From positions 608,001-672,000 of the forward strand of contig CAWDVR010000002.1 in the NCBI GenBank assembly GCA_963805975.1: 64,000 nucleotides of DNA. The letters are read 5' to 3'. Source of the DNA: an uncultured Acidobacteriota bacterium. Its GTDB lineage: Bacteria > Acidobacteriota > Thermoanaerobaculia > Multivoradales > SZUA-115. The stretch's first letter is position 1. Each line of letters opens with the position of its first letter. Below are positions 693-51,904 of this stretch, piece after piece. Both the position numbers and the translations under genes were made by a program. The notes beneath the pieces are model-generated. The model was not told the DNA's origin. It saw only the letters and a program-made list of their open reading frames with translations, and ran no database searches.

Positions 693-3155
693 CTACGTGC
701 TCACCAGCATCTTCACCAGGTTCGGCAGACCCGCGCCCTGCTGCGGCGGGTGGCGCCGCAGGTCGGTGCAGGAGCCGAGCAGGATCTCCTTGACGCGGTC
801 CGGATAGCCGATGAACTCACGACGCAGCGAGAGGAAGGCCGCGATCACCCCCGAGACGTGCGGCGCCGCCATGCTGGTGCCGCTCATCGCCACGTAGAGG
901 TCGTCTGCCGTGCCCTCGCTCCGCAGCCGATGGCGGCAGGAGAGGATGCGCTCGCCGGGGGCCACCACGTCCGGCTTCTGGCGGCCGTCCGCCGTGGGGC
1001 CGCGCGACGAGAAGTACGACACGCCGAAGGTGTGCGGGTTCTCCTTGTGGACCGAGCCCACGGCGATCGCCTCCTCGAGGTTCGCCGGGTCGCCGATCGA
1101 GAGCGCCATGTTGGCTTCGATCGACCCGCCTTCGGTGGCCAGTACCGCGAAGCCCTCGTTGCCGGCGGCCAGCACCACCACCACGCCCTGGCGCCACAGC
1201 CGGCGCAGCTCGCGGCAGAGCGGCGAGTGGCCGCAAGCGTAGACGCTCTGGTCGAAGCCGCCGCCGAGCGAGAGGTTGGCGCCCTGGATCACCAGCTGGC
1301 CGGCGCGCTCGTTGGTCTCGGCGATGTGGTCCAGGGCCTTGATGATCCAGGAGTCCTTGCCGTCGCCCTGGCGGTCGAGGACCTTGTAGACGTGGAGCTT
1401 GGCGAGCGGCGCCATGCCGAAGAACTGGCGCTCGCGGCCCGCGGGCTGGGCCGTGCCGGGCTTGGGAGGCTCCTCGACCGTGAGCTCGCCGGCGATGATG
1501 CCCCCCACGTGCGTGCCGTGGCCGTGCTCGTCCGGGGCCGTGCCGGCCTTGAGCTCTCCCGGCAGCGTGCAGTCGTACTGGGCGGCGATCGTGCCGTGGG
1601 TGGCGAAATGCGGGTGCTCGGCGTAGACGCCGGAGTCCAGCACCGCCCAGTGGATGCCCTCGCCGGTGGCCCGGTAGGCGATGTGCGCCGGCCGCGCCTG
1701 CACGGTGTTGACCGAGGCCTCGATCAGCGCCCGCTTGGCCGAGTTCTTCCAGATCCGGCGCACGGCGCAGCCGCTGCCGTCGCCCAGGGACCAGGCCAGG
1801 CGCTCGGTCTCGGTGCGGGTGAGCTCGGCGGCCACGAAGCGCTTCAGCGCCTCGATCTTGAGCCGCCCCTTCTCGGGACCGGCCATCTCCTCGAGCTTCG
1901 CCACCACTTCCTCGCGCTTCTTGTCGAGCTGGCGGTCGCCGGCGCCGGTGACCTCGGCGAGCTCGATCAGCACCTGGTGGCGGGACTCGAGGGCGCCGTC
2001 CTCGATCGCCCGCGCCACGTCCCGCGCGATGACGAAGCTCGCCACCGGCTGGAAGAGGGCGGTGTCGACCGCCTCGCGCACCATGGTGCGCACCGGCTTC
2101 ATCGACAGATAGCCGCTGCCCGAGTGGGGATGGCGGGGGCTGTCCGGGTTCCAGCCCGGATCGTCCGCGATCGCGACGCCGCCGGTGGGCTGGTACTCGC
2201 CCGCCAGCCGTTTCTTGAGCGCCACCGGGTCGAGCGGGTCCGCGACGTTGAGCCAGGCGCGCACGCACTCGGGCACCGCGAGCTTCTTCTGGCCGGTGAT
2301 CTTCTTGATCTGGTCCTGCACCTCCTGGATGCCGAGCGGCGAGCCGATGGTGACGAACAGGTCCACGTCGAGGTCCGCCTTCTTGAAGCGCGACAGCACG
2401 TCGTAGGCGATCATCGAGCCCTGGCTGTGGCCGATCACCACGAACGGCCCGCCGCCGGCCGCCAGGCGCTCGAGCACGCTGTCCTCCATCACCTTGCGGC
2501 GGTCGGCCTCGAAGAAGAAGTCGTTGACGTCGCGCAGGAAGGCGCGGGTGAGCTTCTTGGTGACCCACCTGCGCAGCACCGCCGGCACCGGGAGCAGCCG
2601 GGCCTCCACCGCGCGCACGCGGATCTCGGCCTCGGAGACCGCCGGCTGGTCGCTCTCGATCTCGTCCGCGATGGCGAGCAGCACGCGCTGCTCACTGGGC
2701 TTCGCCGTCAGCTCGGCGACCTCGCTCTCGATCGAGATCGCGTCGGCCGCCGCCTGCACCGACATGCCCTTTCCCGCCGGCTCCTCCTCCACCGCCGTCA
2801 AGTCGCCGGAGACGCAGGTGCCCGCCTCGGGCTCTGGGAACCGCTCGCGGTTCACCCAGTACGCGAGGCGGCTCCTCTCCCCCAGGTCGAAGCCGAAGAG
2901 GGCATGATCCCACTGGCACTTGAGCACCGACGCCACCGGCTTGTTGCCGATGCCGTGCACGTAAATAATCGTCTTCGCCCGCCCGGCGAGCGAGGTGGTG
3001 AGGGCGGAGAGGAGGGAATCGGAGGCAGCGGCGGTCGCGACCGTCCTCTTGGATGGCGTAGCGGGTACGGCCTTGGAGCGTGCAGGCGTTGCCTTGCGCT
3101 TCGAGGGAGAAGGTCGGGAGGGCTTGCGGGGTGAGCCGGATTGGGGCGTGGGCAT
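693..3155 (-). CDS. S8 subtilase fused to an N-terminal alpha/beta-hydrolase-like domain
   Basis: S8 triad motifs VLDSG, HGHGTHVGG and GTSMAAPHVSG, plus AAGN. The N-terminal domain has VHGIG, GHSQG, TIGSPLG and a late PH. No signal peptide. Confidence 0.9.
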   Translation of the reverse strand: MPTPQSGSPRKPSRPSPSKRKATPARSKAVPATPSKRTVATAAASDSLLSALTTSLAGRAKTIIYVHGIGNKPVASVLKCQWDHALFGFDLGERSRLAYWVNRERFPEPEAGTCVSGDLTAVEEEPAGKGMSVQAAADAISIESEVAELTAKPSEQRVLLAIADEIESDQPAVSEAEIRVRAVEARLLPVPAVLRRWVTKKLTRAFLRDVNDFFFEADRRKVMEDSVLERLAAGGGPFVVIGHSQGSMIAYDVLSRFKKADLDVDLFVTIGSPLGIQEVQDQIKKITGQKKLAVPECVRAWLNVADPLDPVALKKRLAGEYQPTGGVAIADDPGWNPDSPRHPHSGSGYLSMKPVRTMVREAVDTALFQPVASFVIARDVARAIEDGALESRHQVLIELAEVTGAGDRQLDKKREEVVAKLEEMAGPEKGRLKIEALKRFVAAELTRTETERLAWSLGDGSGCAVRRIWKNSAKRALIEASVNTVQARPAHIAYRATGEGIHWAVLDSGVYAEHPHFATHGTIAAQYDCTLPGELKAGTAPDEHGHGTHVGGIIAGELTVEEPPKPGTAQPAGRERQFFGMAPLAKLHVYKVLDRQGDGKDSWIIKALDHIAETNERAGQLVIQGANLSLGGGFDQSVYACGHSPLCRELRRLWRQGVVVVLAAGNEGFAVLATEGGSIEANMALSIGDPANLEEAIAVGSVHKENPHTFGVSYFSSRGPTADGRQKPDVVAPGERILSCRHRLRSEGTADDLYVAMSGTSMAAPHVSGVIAAFLSLRREFIGYPDRVKEILLGSCTDLRRHPPQQGAGLPNLVKMLVST

Positions 3156-7614: not shown

Positions 7615-7965
7615 TCAAGCCTTCCGCGGCTCGGACAGAAGCTCGCGAAGTCGTTGGAGGAGAGGTGGAAGGTCTTCTTGGATTGTCTGCCAGACGATCT
7701 CGAGGCTGATTCCGAAGTACTCGTGCACCAGGACATTGCGCATGTCGCGCATCTCGGACCAGGGGAGATCCGGCGCCGCGGCCACGAGCTCAGCGGAAAC
7801 CCCCTGGGCTGCCTCCCCGATCACGCTCAGGTTTCGGATCACCGCGTCGAAAGTGCGTTCATCGCGACAGAAGCTCTCGTAGTCCAGATTTGCCGTGTAG
7901 CGGCGAATCTTCTCGATCGCCTCGGCGATGTCCTCCAGCCGAAGCCTGGCGTCCCTAGGCGGCAC
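7615..7965 (-). CDS. hepT: HepT-like (DUF86) HEPN ribonuclease toxin
   Basis: IGEAA and RNVLVHEY (Rx4HxY); lies downstream of the MNT gene. Confidence 0.88.
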   Translation of the reverse strand: MPPRDARLRLEDIAEAIEKIRRYTANLDYESFCRDERTFDAVIRNLSVIGEAAQGVSAELVAAAPDLPWSEMRDMRNVLVHEYFGISLEIVWQTIQEDLPPLLQRLRELLSEPRKA

Positions 7966-8266
7966 GGACCAGCTCAGCCAAGACTCGGCTGCGAAGAGCG
8001 GGCTTCAGGGCATCCGGGGTCACCAGATCCACTCGGAAACCGAGCGCATCTTCGAGCAAACGCCGCAGGCGAAGAAACGCGAACAGTCCAATCGGCTTCT
8101 CGAACTCGACCATGAGATCGACATCACTCCCCGGACCGGCTTCGTCTCGGGCGACGGAGCCGAAGACTGCGAGGGACCTGACACCGAAGCCTCGCGCCAC
8201 CGCCTCGGCGGTCCGCAGCCGATCGAGGACCAGTGCCAAAGAGGGTCGAGCCGTGTGGGTGATCAT
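7955..8266 (-). CDS. mntA: Minimal nucleotidyltransferase antitoxin (MntA-like)
   Basis: FGSVARDEAGPGSDVDL (GSx10DxD) and VDLVT; overlaps hepT. Confidence 0.88.
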   Translation of the reverse strand: MITHTARPSLALVLDRLRTAEAVARGFGVRSLAVFGSVARDEAGPGSDVDLMVEFEKPIGLFAFLRLRRLLEDALGFRVDLVTPDALKPALRSRVLAELVRAA

Positions 8267-37981: not shown

Positions 37982-38227
37982 ATGACCACTCTGAGCATCC
38001 GCATCCCCACCGCCCCTAACGAGAGGCTCAGCCGTAAGGCGCGCGCCGCCCGGGTGCCTCGCTCCGTCGTGGTGCGAGACGCCCTGGCGGACTTCGTAGC
38101 GCGCAAGGAGGAGGAGAGATTCATAACGGAGCTCGTCGCCGCGGCCAAGGCGCTGGCCCGGAGCCCTACCGGGTCTCTCGCCCTCGCAGAGGAGTTCCAC
38201 CGCTCGAGAACGAGGCGTTGGACCTGA
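37982..38227 (+). CDS. Ribbon-helix-helix (CopG-like) antitoxin, probably frameshifted at the 3' end
   Basis: MTTLSIRIP...LSRKAR...RSVVVRDALADF RHH pattern; an alternative frame reads PLENEALD. Confidence 0.7.
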   Translation: MTTLSIRIPTAPNERLSRKARAARVPRSVVVRDALADFVARKEEERFITELVAAAKALARSPTGSLALAEEFHRSRTRRWT

Positions 38228-38426
38228 CCACCCAGCTTTGGCCCGCGCTGGAGCCGATCCGCGTCAGGATCCCAGCTCGCGGGCGTCTCACACAAGACTG
38301 TCACGAGATGGTCGAGCAGGTGCGGGTCGTAGACCGCCGCCTAGGTGAGGTCCTCTCACTGTGCTGACCGCCGATGAGCTGGCAGCTCTCGGACGTAGCC
38401 TGAAGGCTGTGCTAGGTCTGCGGTAG
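38224..38426 (+). pseudogene. mazF: PemK/MazF toxin remnant (5' deleted, frameshifted)
   Basis: Reads LTTQLWPALEPIRVRIPARGRLTQDCHEMVEQVRVVDRRLG/EGPLTVLTADELAALGRSLKAVLGLR*, matching the C-terminal half of PemK/MazF. Confidence 0.75.
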
Positions 38427-38458
38427 TACACTGACTCCGACGCCGCGTCAGGGCACCT

Positions 38459-38959
38459 GTGGAACGAGTAGGCAAGCATCTCGCCGAGGTCGCCACTTCG
38501 AAGAGCAGCGTCGACGAGATCGACCTCTTCGCGCGCAGCGCCTTTAACCGCTTCTACTATGCCGCCTTCCTCGCCACCCGCGAGACACTACGGAAGCTGG
38601 ATGACCGTTGGAGGGAGCCCAACCATAAGGATGTTCCAGCGATTCTGCGAGGCAGAGTAGTCGACCGGGTCACAGAAGAGCTGAAGCGGCAGAGCGATGC
38701 TGGCATTCCACTCCTCCCGGGCCTGCCGCAGCTGACGCACGAGATTCACGCGGCTACCGATGCACTGGCGCAACTCCTTAAGCAAGCGTACAGCGTCCGC
38801 CGGACGGCTGACTACAAGCCGGAGGCTCGAGCGCTGAGGTCTGCGGGGATGATCATGCTTGATCAGGTCAAGCTCTCCCAGGCAGAGCATTGGCCTCGGC
38901 GCGCCAGGGCGTATGCACTGCAAATCGAGAGAGTCTATGGAAAGCTCGCGCTCCTCTAA
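38459..38959 (+). CDS. HEPN-domain protein (putative retron effector)
   Basis: RSAFNRFYYAAF, NHKDV and RRTADY are motifs of the 'RxYY...H...RxxADY' HEPN family. Confidence 0.8.
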   Translation: MERVGKHLAEVATSKSSVDEIDLFARSAFNRFYYAAFLATRETLRKLDDRWREPNHKDVPAILRGRVVDRVTEELKRQSDAGIPLLPGLPQLTHEIHAATDALAQLLKQAYSVRRTADYKPEARALRSAGMIMLDQVKLSQAEHWPRRARAYALQIERVYGKLALL

Positions 38960-39698
38960 GGTCGAGGGAGTCCGCGAGCTCCTTGCGGCTAGAGGGCTCG
39001 ATTTCGTGAGCCGGATCGAACACAGCAATTCGCCCCCACCCGACCTCGTGCTCTTCGTTCCGGGTAGCCGCGTCAGCGCAGAAGCCGGGAAAGGCAAAAC
39101 GTCTCGGCGCCAACTGGCTGCGCTCGCTCGATCGATCCAGGAAAGCTTCGGCCTTACTGTGGAGTGGCTACTCTTTCAGAGCCCTGAGGACGAGACTCTC
39201 GAGCAGGATCTGAGCGCCCTTCTGGAGCACAGATTCCCAGCTACGGTCGGCCATCTCTCTGTCTCCGGGGCTGGCCTGCCGCAGCCGACCGTCTGGGTCG
39301 AGAGAGTTCCTGGTCGTAAGCCGACGATCGAGCCGGAGCAGATCCGAAAAGTCGTGGCCGAGTTCTTCGAGCTCTACCGACTCGGCTCTCCAGGCGTGGT
39401 GTTCAACGACGAAGCTCCTGAGCCGACCGGTCCGTTGATCCTTAGGGTGATCAAGCAGCATTCCCCCACGGATCCCGAGCTCTTGGAGGAGTGCCTGCGG
39501 GCAAGAGGTTTCTGGGTGCCGAAGCCCGGGGCGCTGGCAGCCAAGCTCGACCTGCTGAGGAAGAAGGGACTAGTCAGCCGGCTCGAGGATGGCTCGTATG
39601 TGCTCACGGAGGAAGCCTTGCAGATCGTCCCGCACGGTCGGTACCGCAGCAGCTCCGACATCGAGCGTGCCCTTGCTCTCGCGAAAAGGAAGTGGTAG
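38937..39698 (+). CDS. Retron-associated protein with C-terminal winged HTH
   Basis: Overlaps the HEPN gene; C-terminal 'ILRVIK...LDLLRKKGLVSRLEDGSYVLTEEAL' wHTH pattern. Confidence 0.72.
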   Translation: MESSRSSKVEGVRELLAARGLDFVSRIEHSNSPPPDLVLFVPGSRVSAEAGKGKTSRRQLAALARSIQESFGLTVEWLLFQSPEDETLEQDLSALLEHRFPATVGHLSVSGAGLPQPTVWVERVPGRKPTIEPEQIRKVVAEFFELYRLGSPGVVFNDEAPEPTGPLILRVIKQHSPTDPELLEECLRARGFWVPKPGALAAKLDLLRKKGLVSRLEDGSYVLTEEALQIVPHGRYRSSSDIERALALAKRKW

Positions 39699-39704
39699 AA
39701 GGAC

Positions 39705-39883
39705 GCGAGGAATGACGGTGGAACTCTCGCGCGGGCGTGCATCACGCCCATTAGCGAAGACCGGCGAAAGAAGGTGCCTGCCCAGCGGCAGCCGCTCCTT
39801 CGAACCGCCCGCCGCTGGGCAGGCGATCGCCCTGAAAGCAGATTCAGCTTTGCTCTTCCCGTGAAACCGCCGCCATTCCTCGT
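39705..39883 (+). ncRNA. Retron msr-msd non-coding RNA
   Basis: 17-nt inverted arms gcgaggaatgacggtgg (39705-39721) and ccgccgccattcctcgt (39867-39883). Hairpin gggcgtg-cat-cacgccc at 39733-39749. Perfect 14-bp stem at 39776-39789/39811-39824. Confidence 0.8.
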
Positions 39884-40814
39884 CAGCTTCCCCGACGAAA
39901 CCTCCCTCAGACAGGCTCTCACTGGCGAGTCTCAGTCCTATTGGCCGGAAGTGGAAGCGCTCCTAGAGCAACGTCTTCCGCCAGTCGTCGCCATCAGAAT
40001 CCTCGCCTGCATGTTTGGCTATAGCGCTCGTTTCGTAGGGGCTCTCCAGCGCCGCCCAGAGCGCTACTACCGCACCTTCCTAGTTCACAAAGGTAAGAAG
40101 AAGCGCGAGATCCAAGCACCAAGAGTGGCACTCAAGGTCATTCAGAAGTGGTTCGCTCACCACTTGGCGCAGGCGGTAGAGCTCGACGAGTGCGTGTTCG
40201 GCTTTGTGCCCGGGCGATCTGCCCCGCATGCGGCAGCACGCCATTGTGGAGCGAACTGGGTATACGCGATCGACCTTGCCGACTTCTTTCGATCGACGCC
40301 ACGGGAGCGCGTAGAGGCTGTGTTGCGGGATCTGGGCTACCCCTCTCATGGAGCAGACCTCGCCGCTCGCCTCTGCTGCTACGGCGACTACCTGGCGCAG
40401 GGCTCGCCAGCGAGCCCAGTGCTTTCGAACCTGGTGCTGCGCCCCTTGGATGGGAGCTTGAAGCAGATCGCCATCGACGCTGGCGCCACCTATACACGGT
40501 ACGCAGACGATCTGGTCTTCTCTGGTTCGGGCGACTTCCCAGCGGGCCTCGACGAGAGAGCTCGACAGGCGGTCGCAGAGGACGGCTGGAGGCTCGCCGA
40601 GGGCAAGGAGCATCTGGCGAAGCTTCCGCAGCGCCTCAAAGTGCACGGGCTCTTGGTGCACGGCCCACGCCCGAGGCTGACCAAAGGCTATCGAAATCGC
40701 CTGCGAGCGTTCCGGCATCTCATCGAGCACAATCGCGTCAAGGAAGAAGATCTAGGGCGCTTACAGGGGCACCTTGCGTACGCGGAGTCCGTTGAAGGCT
40801 TCAAGCCCGCGTGA
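39861..40814 (+). CDS. Retron-type reverse transcriptase
   Basis: YRTF...KREIQAP..LKVIQ, FGFVPGRS, HAAARH (region X, NAxxH-like), IDLADFF, LAQGSPASPVLSN, YADD and KVHGL (VTG-like region Y). GTG 39861 was chosen because the upstream in-frame stretch is ncRNA. Confidence 0.93.
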   Translation: MKPPPFLVSFPDETSLRQALTGESQSYWPEVEALLEQRLPPVVAIRILACMFGYSARFVGALQRRPERYYRTFLVHKGKKKREIQAPRVALKVIQKWFAHHLAQAVELDECVFGFVPGRSAPHAAARHCGANWVYAIDLADFFRSTPRERVEAVLRDLGYPSHGADLAARLCCYGDYLAQGSPASPVLSNLVLRPLDGSLKQIAIDAGATYTRYADDLVFSGSGDFPAGLDERARQAVAEDGWRLAEGKEHLAKLPQRLKVHGLLVHGPRPRLTKGYRNRLRAFRHLIEHNRVKEEDLGRLQGHLAYAESVEGFKPA

Positions 40815-40910
40815 TAGGCGACGACACCCGCACTCGACCCACCAGAAGCTCAAGCCGGCAAGTTAGCGGCACTTCTCCTTGGCCAGGACTTCGCGCTCGA
40901 CTGCACGCGC

Positions 40911-41333
40911 TCACCGAACCCTCGTGTCGCTCCCCCAGTCCTCGACTCGGAGGCCAACGACACGCAGCATGTGCTCGAGATTGGCCGTCACCAGAACCGC
41001 GCCGGTGGCGAGAGCGTGGGCCGCGATGGCGGCATCGAAGTCCTCTATGACCCGGCCCTTCTTCTCCAGCTCCGCCTTGATCGCCCCGAAGCTCTCGCTC
41101 ACCCGGTCGGTCCACTCCGCGCGAGCCAGCTCGGAACGGATCGTCTCGAACCGCTCCTCCAGTGCCTGCCTCCGCTTGGACCGCGGCAACCGCGCCAGCC
41201 CGTACGCGATCTCCGCCAGCACGGGCTGAGGCAGCGCGACATCCGCCCGGCTGACCTGCTTCAGCCGGTCGAGGAATCCGGCCTCGCCCTTCATCAGTGC
41301 CGAGACTGCGTTCGTGTCCAGGAGGTATTTCAT
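40911..41333 (-). CDS. vapC: VapC PIN-domain toxin
   Basis: Motifs YLLDTN, E, FDAAIAAHAL and LVTAN. Confidence 0.92.
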   Translation of the reverse strand: MKYLLDTNAVSALMKGEAGFLDRLKQVSRADVALPQPVLAEIAYGLARLPRSKRRQALEERFETIRSELARAEWTDRVSESFGAIKAELEKKGRVIEDFDAAIAAHALATGAVLVTANLEHMLRVVGLRVEDWGSDTRVR

Positions 41334-41578
41334 AGCAGTCTTGGCGGCTTCGACCGGCGCCCGGCAGCGATCGCCGCCAGCAGCTCGTCGGCCGCCTGGC
41401 CGATCTCCGCGTTCGTCGCGCTCAGCCGCTCGAAGAAACCGGGAGACCAGTCCCCACCGCCGGCCAGCTCTCGCTCCAGAGCACGGACGATGAGGCGGTT
41501 TCTGCTCACTCCGAGGTTACGGGCCCTGCGGTCCGCGGCGTCGAGCAAAGGCCGGGGAATGTGGACGCTGGTCGACAT
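41330..41578 (-). CDS. VapB-like RHH antitoxin
   Basis: MSTSVHIPRPLL..ADRRA...GVSRN.LI..AL; ATGA overlap with vapC. Confidence 0.82.
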   Translation of the reverse strand: MSTSVHIPRPLLDAADRRARNLGVSRNRLIVRALERELAGGGDWSPGFFERLSATNAEIGQAADELLAAIAAGRRSKPPRLL

Positions 41579-44653: not shown

Positions 44654-44947
44654 CTAGCGGCGGCCCGCTCGCGCCGGTTTCGAGGTCGAGGCTCCGCGCG
44701 GGAGGGGGGATCGAGGTGGCGAGTGATGATCCGCATAGGAGTCCAGAAGCCGACGGATCATCCGCTGATATTGCGTCCGATGTGTGGCTGCCTCGCGCTT
44801 GAAGAACTCCACGCTCTTCCTGCTGAGCGAGATGGTGACCTTGACGCCTTCCTCCTGGAAGGCAAGCTCCTCGGGCGGCGGCAGGAAATCCGCGACCACC
44901 TCCAACCTCCCCAACGGCTCATTCGTGTACTTGATTGGTCTGCTCAT
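44654..44947 (-). CDS. CopG/BrnA-type antitoxin
   Basis: DFLPPPEEL..KVTISLS..SVEFFK..A...YQRMIRRLLD.Y. Confidence 0.8.
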   Translation of the reverse strand: MSRPIKYTNEPLGRLEVVADFLPPPEELAFQEEGVKVTISLSRKSVEFFKREAATHRTQYQRMIRRLLDSYADHHSPPRSPLPRGASTSKPARAGRR

Positions 44948-44981
44948 AGTAGAGCCTCTTCCCCCTTCGCCAGTAGCCGGC
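44919..44981 (-). pseudogene. C-terminal remnant of a BrnT-type toxin
   Basis: AGYWRRGKRLYYEQTNQVHE* overlaps the antitoxin start; the upstream part is missing. Confidence 0.55.
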
Positions 44982-45037
44982 AAGCGCCCGGCGCTCGCGT
45001 TCTAGGGCCAATACCGTTCACTGAAGCCTCTTGGCTC

Positions 45038-51231: not shown

Positions 51232-51389
51232 GCGATCAATCCTCCCAAACCCGCCAGGAACAACCCTTGCCAATTGGGCGCCGCCCACGACCAAGCGTAC
51301 GACAAATGTAGGTGCAGGTTTCGCGTGCGGGGTTGAGTGCCGGACGCAAGGAGCCCAAGGTGGGCCCACGCCTGAGCTACACTGGCCCG

Positions 51390-51650
51390 ATGCAGAAGAG
51401 AGCTGCGCTCCACACCTTGGTCGACGAGCTCCCCGAGGGTGAGCTGGTCACTGCCGAGAGGTTCCTCGACTATCTCCGCTCCCGAGCGCAAGAACGGCTC
51501 GAGGTTCATCTGGCAGAGGCTCCCCTCGACGACGAGCCGGTGACCGGCGACGACTTGGCGGCGATTCGTGAAGGCCGAGACCAAGTCGAGCACGGCGAGG
51601 TCGTCTCCCACGAAGAGGTCAAGCGCCGCATCCTGGGCTCGGCTCGGTGA
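51390..51650 (+). CDS. Putative antitoxin
   Basis: LHTLVDELPE...DDEP....AIREG......G..VSHEEVK; GTGA overlap with the toxin gene. Confidence 0.75.
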   Translation: MQKRAALHTLVDELPEGELVTAERFLDYLRSRAQERLEVHLAEAPLDDEPVTGDDLAAIREGRDQVEHGEVVSHEEVKRRILGSAR

Positions 51651-51904
51651 ATCAGGAGGCTCGTTGGACCAAGCGAGCCCTCAAGGAGCTCGAGACGCTC
51701 GATCGCCGCCTTCAGGAACGCATCCTCGGCGCGCTGGATCGCCTGGTGTCCGAGGCTCGCGGTGACACGCGCCGCTTGCAGGGAATGGCCGAAGCCGTCT
51801 ATCGGCTGCGGGTGGGAGACTGGCGAGTGATCTTCACCCGTGACCAGGACGGGGCCATTCTCGTGCTTCGGGTGCGGCCCCGCGGCTCGGCCTACGAGCC
51901 GTAG
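51647..51904 (+). CDS. RelE/ParE family toxin
   Basis: A.KEL..L, YRLRVGDWRVIF and RGSAY. Confidence 0.88.
   Translation: MNQEARWTKRALKELETLDRRLQERILGALDRLVSEARGDTRRLQGMAEAVYRLRVGDWRVIFTRDQDGAILVLRVRPRGSAYEP

What the first reader, a model, noticed from the sequence alone, without database searches (positions are those of the whole stretch)
38459..40814. Complete retron (HEPN + wHTH + msr-msd + RT) in a small defence island beside uvrA
Seen: three tightly packed genes (HEPN, wHTH protein, compact ~317-aa YADD RT) with a structured non-coding gap just before the RT. The RT has retron-type region X (HAAARH) and region Y (KVHGL), and no group II intron maturase or endonuclease tail. Known: retrons are RT/ncRNA/effector anti-phage abortive-infection systems, and a HEPN + HTH partner set matches the type IX class as I recall the Mestre et al. 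classification. Inference: this is a divergent, probably uncharacterised retron from a Thermoanaerobaculia-like host, in which a HEPN RNase is held inactive by an RT-msDNA-wHTH complex.
Basis: partly seen in the sequence, partly recalled or inferred. Interest (0 to 1): 0.88.

Follow-up and report, generated by a model that had tools for sequence, protein, structure and literature searches.

The report
Intact type IX anti-phage retron
This is an intact new copy of a known bacterial anti-virus system (a type IX retron), in which an RNA-cutting toxin is likely held off by a DNA-RNA-protein scaffold until a phage damages it; it is ordinary for its family, but its structured RNA is predicted to fold back onto the first codons of its own reverse transcriptase gene.

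Summary
Confirmed. The three genes match PADLOC HEPN_IX, HTH_IX and RT_IX, and each has a Retron-Kva2 chain (PDB 36HT) as best solved relative. The residues shown essential in Kva2/Sen3 are kept (HEPN H56/R114, RT YADD, WH D205/R208/K209/R215). The gap is a retron ncRNA: 29 of 42 predicted pairs show compensatory changes over 26 loci, and the predicted msDNA tip matches Kva2 base for base. Type IX was solved in three 2026 preprints, so this is a new member of a known kind, untested itself and rare in its phylum (0 of 300 sampled genomes). Corrections: the ncRNA runs into the RT gene; the 'island' is a toxin-antitoxin slot (broken pemK, vapBC), not a multi-system island. Side result: in 68 of 68 type IX loci the ncRNA's outer stem is predicted to pair with RT codons 1-9, with compensation at proline wobble positions, and the candidate priming G lies 9 nt before the RT start, which has no Shine-Dalgarno site. 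Overlap is known for Retron-Eco11; I did not find it discussed for type IX. A regulatory role is speculation.

The parts
37982..38227 (+). Ribbon-helix-helix antitoxin-like gene (shortened relative to the same-genus copy); neighbour, not part of the retron
   Evidence: Pfam RHH_1 E 6.4e-5, CcdA E 3.8e-5; 76% identical to G001 copy
38224..38426 (+). Broken pemK/mazF-like toxin gene (5' part missing, frameshifted); neighbour
   Evidence: 86% identical over 42 aa to an intact 113-aa PemK_toxin gene (E 2e-25) at the same site in G001
38459..38959 (+). Type IX HEPN RNase effector, 166 aa; F32-Y33-Y34, H56, R114 (Kva2 Y40-42, H64, R122)
   Evidence: PADLOC HEPN_IX E 2e-46; PDB 36ht_I E 5e-21, ungapped alignment; H56 and R114 invariant in 76 of 76 homologues
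38937..39698 (+). Tandem KH-like plus winged-helix accessory protein, 253 aa; R58, Q59, D205, R208, K209, R215 (Kva2 R50, Q51, D197, R200, K201, R207)
   Evidence: PADLOC HTH_IX E 2e-57; PDB 36ht_B E 4e-16; conservation in 69 homologues
39705..39883 (+). Retron ncRNA, whole predicted extent
   Evidence: z -5.3; 42-pair consensus, 29 pairs with compensatory change
39705..39721 (+). 5' arm of the outer closing stem (pairs with 39867-39883)
39733..39749 (+). msr stem-loop 1 (17 nt; equals Kva2 G18-C34), enclosed by a 4-bp stem 39727-30/39754-57; linker 39750-39759 equals Kva2 A35-G44
   Evidence: Kva2 numbering
39760..39833 (+). Predicted msd template (74 nt) with long hairpin 39776-39824; tip 39797-39803 gives msDNA dT31, dG33, dA34, dG36 as in Kva2
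   Evidence: Kva2 contacts
39834..39852 (+). Stem-loop 3; G39834 candidate opposing G, G39852 candidate branching (priming) G, 9 nt before the RT start
   Evidence: both G invariant in 26 of 26; 19-nt spacing as Kva2 G121/G139
39867..39883 (+). 3' arm of the outer closing stem, lying in RT codons 3-8
   Evidence: (columns 199-205)
39861..40814 (+). Type IX retron reverse transcriptase, 317 aa, YADD at 214-217
   Evidence: PADLOC RT_IX 430 bits against 209 for the next profile; PDB 36ht_A E 3e-76 against 2e-25 for Ec86
40911..41578 (-). vapBC pair (PIN toxin 40911-41333, RHH antitoxin 41330-41578); neighbour
   Evidence: Pfam PIN E 2e-14, RHH_1; NCBIfam VapC below cut-off

Best explanation
The locus is an intact type IX retron operon (HEPN, KH-winged-helix protein, ncRNA, reverse transcriptase) that likely works as an abortive-infection system in the way shown for Retron-Kva2, Sen3 and Yin1. 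Shown here: gene order, profile identity, kept catalytic and msDNA-binding residues, and a covarying ncRNA. Inferred from those homologues: the RT copies 39833 back to 39760 into a ~74-nt DNA hairpin, primed from G39852 at the 3' end of stem-loop 3; RT, msDNA and the WH protein assemble around HEPN dimers and block the composite H56/R114 site; a phage nuclease that cuts the msDNA (or a DNA-binding protein that displaces WH) frees HEPN, which cuts tRNA and rRNA and stops growth of the infected cell.
For: PADLOC type IX profiles are the only (HEPN, HTH) or by far the best (RT) hits. Kva2 chains are the best PDB relatives of all three proteins. All 23 HEPN positions conserved in at least 85% of 76 homologues are kept; 11 of 12 in WH; all but 3 in RT. 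76 of 80 related RT loci with enough upstream DNA carry both partner genes. ncRNA: 95.1% of cells paired, 29 of 42 pairs compensatory, 0 of 500 shuffles, slid controls 34-47%. msDNA tip bases fall on the Kva2 numbering. The genome encodes an RNase H-fold protein and ExoVII large subunit. Mechanism: Results sections of three preprints.
Against: Nothing was tested at the bench for this copy. No sigma-70-type promoter was found (0.2 expected by chance, so uninformative). WH has Ala199 where 59 of 69 homologues have Trp (10 others also lack it), and lacks Kva2 D190/N193, which are variable in the family. The neighbouring pemK is broken, so the site does accumulate decay. The three preprints disagree on assembly (sheet, ring, asymmetric) and trigger (nuclease or D5), so those details cannot be transferred with confidence. 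The structure counted was predicted from the same alignment.
Confidence: 0.88

Rival explanations
1. The operon is a type IX retron by descent but is silent or decaying in this host, stranded in a slot of decaying toxin-antitoxin genes.
For: Adjacent pemK is a pseudogene; no promoter-like site; WH Trp-to-Ala at 199; codon third-position GC 0.71-0.74 against 0.91-0.95 in flanking core genes.
Against: No stop or frameshift in any of the three genes; every tested catalytic and tip-binding residue and every ncRNA helix is kept although the nearest RT is only 62% identical.
Confidence: 0.07
2. It acts mainly as an addiction or stress toxin-antitoxin module (HEPN toxin, WH plus msDNA antitoxin) rather than as phage defence.
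For: Sits between two type II TA loci at a variable site; WH alone partly neutralises HEPN in Kva2.
Against: Kva2 and Sen3 give phage defence that needs RT, HEPN and WH; no integrase or transposase among the 52 other window proteins scanned.
Confidence: 0.04
3. The RT belongs to a non-retron class (group II intron, DRT/UG, DGR) and the partners are chance neighbours.
For: Canonical NAXXH and VTG motifs read AAXXH and VHG; NCBIfam retron models score below their cut-offs.
Against: Group II and DRT models score 54 bits or less; Kva2 has the same motif variants; partners co-occur in 76 of 80 loci.
Confidence: 0.01

Closest known systems
Retron-Kva2 (type IX, Klebsiella variicola; PDB 36HT; bioRxiv 10.64898/2026.07.14.738597, PMC13405049)
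   Same: Gene order, protein sizes, H/R composite HEPN site, YADD, RT R71/F73, WH tip-binding D/R/K/R, 17-nt SL1, 10-nt linker, 19-nt SL3 bounded by two G, msDNA tip bases.
   Different: Distant in sequence; F for Y at the first substrate-positioning residue (12 of 76 homologues too); WH lacks D190, W191, N193 equivalents; msd template 74 rather than 76 nt; other phylum; untested.
Retron-Sen3 and Retron-Yin1 (type IX; bioRxiv 10.64898/2026.07.14.737667)
   Same: Operon definition, HTH residues D197/R200/K201/R207, msDNA tip T-x-G-A-A-G-G.
   Different: Their sequences were not compared directly; ring assembly and B14T trigger cannot be assumed here.
Retron-Eco11 (type III-A3; PMC12746101)
   Same: ncRNA overlaps the 5' end of the RT gene on the same strand (passage read).
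   Different: PRTase effector; its terminal repeats carry the predicted branching G, whereas here the candidate G is on a separate 3' hairpin.
Retron-Vpa2 (type VI; bioRxiv 10.1101/2025.10.22.683967)
   Same: Precedent for a retron RNA that both templates msDNA and represses translation of a gene it contains (abstract only).
   Different: There the repressed gene is the toxin; here it would be the RT, and no such control is shown.

Membership tests
Type IX retron | Clade-7/type IX retron RT | tested here: met
   RT_IX 430 bits, next 209; Kva2 RT E 3e-76. No tree with other retron types was built.
Type IX retron | Upstream HEPN gene without Rx4-6H but with the distant His/Arg pair | tested here: met
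   H56 and R114 align to Kva2 H64 and R122, invariant in 76 of 76
Type IX retron | Overlapping second gene with C-terminal winged helix | tested here: met
   HTH_IX E 2e-57; overlap 23 nt here, 8 nt in 38 of 69 loci, 23 nt in 3
Type IX retron | Family IX ncRNA between WH and RT (SL1, msd hairpin, SL3 with two G) | tested here: met
   the published covariance model itself was not available, Rfam has no match
Type IX retron | WH residues and msDNA tip bases that form the inter-unit contact | tested here: met
   D205, R208, K209, R215; dT31, dG33, dA34, dG36; N193 equivalent is absent and variable
Retrons in general | Literal NAXXH and VTG motifs | tested here: not met
   AAXXH and VHG instead, as in Kva2 and nearly all 85 homologues; a type IX trait, not a defect
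Retrons in general | Makes branched msDNA | not testable with these tools
   needs expression
Type IX retron | HEPN-dependent abortive infection | not testable with these tools
   needs phage challenge
Group II intron / DRT RTs | Maturase or DRT profile above cut-off | tested here: not met
   54 bits of 300, 33 of 390, 18 of 200

The most novel reading that the evidence does not exclude
Type IX retrons prime msDNA from inside the RT's own ribosome-landing region and lock the first RT codons in the ncRNA's outer stem, so one transcript is either translated into RT or consumed as retron RNA: a built-in feedback that sets RT, msDNA and hence antitoxin supply. The family-wide N-terminal proline run of the RT would then be conserved partly as RNA, and one clade has replaced the priming hairpin altogether.
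Probability: 0.3. Interest if true: 0.6.

Novelty: new member of a known kind. Interest (0 to 1): 0.3.

Why it matters
As a system it adds one intact, distant, high-GC member to a type that was solved in 2026 from enterobacteria only; it could serve as a test of whether triggers and assembly hold outside Pseudomonadota. The side result matters to people working on type IX: the ncRNA must be taken to include the first RT codons, so recoding or N-terminal deletion of the RT in the native operon would also cut the RNA (for example the Kva2 RT 39-residue deletion, if made that way; the methods sections I read do not say), and the overlap offers a direct test of translational feedback.

Tried and rejected
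Rfam: only two chance miRNA matches far below threshold. Pfam and NCBIfam do not name the HEPN or WH proteins. Single-sequence locus search with the WH protein found nothing; the RT alignment worked. The 346-aa RT start at 39774 was rejected (it lies in the msd hairpin; homologues start at the 39861 position). No sequencing run was listed, so no reads were laid. Earlier scan notes: none. No promoter-like site. No flanking repeats or second copy in the genome. 37982-38227 was first scanned on the wrong strand and redone. PADLOC hits of UvrA (mad3), the ArsR protein (Csa3) and others are generic domain matches and were not taken as systems. The careful tree did not finish; the quick tree is used. 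No structure or complex prediction was run, since solved homologues exist. Gain here or loss in G001 could not be decided.

Full report
Observation. The window holds three same-strand ORFs at 38459-38959, 38937-39698 and 39861-40814, in a stretch of 62% GC against 70% for the genome; third-position GC is 0.71-0.74 against 0.91-0.95 in four flanking core genes. PADLOC gives HEPN_IX (E 2e-46) and HTH_IX (E 2e-57) as the only hits for the first two, and RT_IX at 430 bits, twice the next profile, for the third. In the PDB the best relatives are the three protein chains of Retron-Kva2, 36HT. The RT_IX profile starts at residue 31 of the mechanical 346-aa ORF, and homologues are 316-322 aa as a rule, so the RT most likely starts at GTG 39861.

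What is known. A search for retron, type IX and HEPN gave 7 papers, 5 listed. I read the whole Results, Discussion and two Methods sections of bioRxiv 10.64898/2026.07.14.738597, parts 1-2 of 3 of the Results of 10.64898/2026.07.14.737667 and part 1 of 2 of the Results of PMC13405049, and passages of PMC7736814. They show phage defence by abortive infection that needs RT YADD, HEPN H64 and R122, WH and the msDNA tip; tRNA and rRNA cleavage; and activation by phage nucleases or T5 D5. Hayashi et al. propose unusual priming from G139 at the 3' end of stem-loop 3. Supplements of the two bioRxiv-only papers and all figures were not seen; one supplement of PMC13405049 was searched, several of its pages being pictures.

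Proteins. From 89 related loci (80 genome, 8 viral-collection, 1 relative) I extracted homologues. H56 and R114 (Kva2 H64, R122 by an ungapped alignment) are invariant in 76 of 76 HEPNs; WH D205, R208, K209, R215 are the majority residue in 65, 64, 52 and 57 of 69; YADD is invariant in 85 of 85 (2 WH and 4 RT sequences dropped as short). Departures at positions at least 85% conserved: none in HEPN, one in WH (Ala199 for Trp, also missing in 10 of 69), three conservative ones in RT. Of 80 loci with at least 1.5 kb upstream, 76 carry both partners (9 loci too short; the profiles were built from these same loci).

ncRNA. 39699-39890 folds at z -5.3 into an outer stem, a 4-bp stem around SL1, the msd hairpin and SL3. 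Lengths match Kva2: SL1 17 nt, linker 10 nt, SL3 19 nt between two G, template 74 against 76 nt. Numbered from the base before G39834, the predicted msDNA has T31, G33, A34, G36, the bases WH reads in Kva2, and C9, G10, C58, C60 of the basal triples, but not G59 or A61. An alignment of 26 loci (chosen from the 27 of this subgroup that have SL3, one near-duplicate left out) gives 42 consensus pairs, 29 with changes on both sides; 95.1% of cells pair against 79.1% in shuffles and 34-47% when slid. The structure was predicted from this alignment, and the loci are kin, so the controls flatter it; the msd helix alone has 17 of 20 pairs compensated.

The ncRNA overlaps the RT gene. The outer stem pairs 39705-39721 with 39867-39883, RT codons 3-8. 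Of 90 loci, 70 gave a usable WH-RT gap and 68 a start codon. In 68 of 68, partition-function folding gives at least 6 expected pairs between the first 35 nt and RT codons 1-9. In 59 of 68 the first 27 coding bases are the best partner among 20 consecutive windows of the same gene; in 66 of 68 the own RT start pairs better than the mean of other loci of the subgroup, though it ranks first in only 18. The two variable pairs of the consensus stem are proline wobble positions, each with 8 of 26 double changes. SL3 was found in 58 of 68; its 3' G lies 9 nt before the start in 17 of 27 loci of this subgroup and 5 nt before it in 27 of 31 of the other. A Shine-Dalgarno-like site precedes 9 of 68 RT starts against 24 of 64 HEPN and 30 of 62 WH starts (anti-SD motif recalled). 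A locus whose RT begins with the same 11 residues as Kva2 (L092) has the same overlap, and the published 173-nt Kva2 ncRNA runs 34 nt past G139, so it probably includes these codons without saying so (inference). The words overlap and start codon do not occur in the main text of the three preprints; searches and passages showed nothing for type IX. Overlap with the RT start is described for Retron-Eco11, so the arrangement is not new for retrons. Whether it regulates RT translation is untested; simple compaction explains it too.

Context. The locus lies beside one of three UvrA-like genes. A same-genus genome (G001) has at this site an intact RHH-PemK pair followed at once by vapB and the first codons of vapC, without the retron, plus further TA genes. 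In the window pemK is broken and 38427-41310 (retron and most of vapC) fills the gap. The cut vapC in G001 suggests deletion there; the low GC suggests earlier lateral gain; the order cannot be fixed. The retron starts 32 nt after the pemK remnant and may be read from the RHH promoter (inference). HEPN_IX was found in 1 of 40 relatives and 0 of 300 genomes sampled from the phylum. In a quick RT tree of 87 rows the window groups with two Acidobacteriota RTs and the same-order one (support 89).

Verdict. An intact type IX retron, new member of a known kind. Identity is near certain; function is inferred from homologues (0.88). Interest 0.3, carried mostly by the family-wide ncRNA-RT overlap and the SL3-less clade.

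Noticed in passing
L011, L015, L023, L026, L030, L034, L041, L074-L076 (about 2835-3030): Ten type IX loci lack the SL3 priming-hairpin motif; their RTs form one clade (support 98). In several, the 5' part of msd is predicted to pair with bases just before the RT start instead: possibly another priming geometry.
   Followed up: partly
31 loci, e.g. L031, L058: A second subgroup has an RT beginning M-R-L-P, and its outer stem covers the start codon itself; one side of a branch in the tree (support 92).
   Followed up: partly
L010, L018, L080, L082: Type IX-like RTs with no HEPN or WH upstream; in L010 a divergent 383-aa plus 565-aa gene pair (the second a P-loop ATPase; by eye Sir2-HerA-like, not scanned) stands directly upstream.
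   Followed up: partly
L067:1459-2887; L071:1223-2914: 1.4-1.7 kb of extra DNA between WH and RT, perhaps insertion elements in the ncRNA.
   Followed up: no
L038:2888-3024: ncRNA about 30 nt short, msd hairpin tip missing.
   Followed up: no
L002/L109 (G025): Type IX retron directly behind a DNA methyltransferase-like gene in a same-order genome.
   Followed up: no
window 7615-8266, 44654-44983, 51312-51904: Further TA genes in the window: MNT-HepT pair, lone BrnA-like gene, ParE pair.
   Followed up: no
L003 (G000:C4:585407-586072): A second RT in the genome, 551-aa open frame, not type IX.
   Followed up: no
L103:2461-3472: The same slot in G001 holds a Phd-PIN pair and a lone VapB-like gene, so the site next to this uvrA paralogue collects TA modules.
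   Followed up: partly
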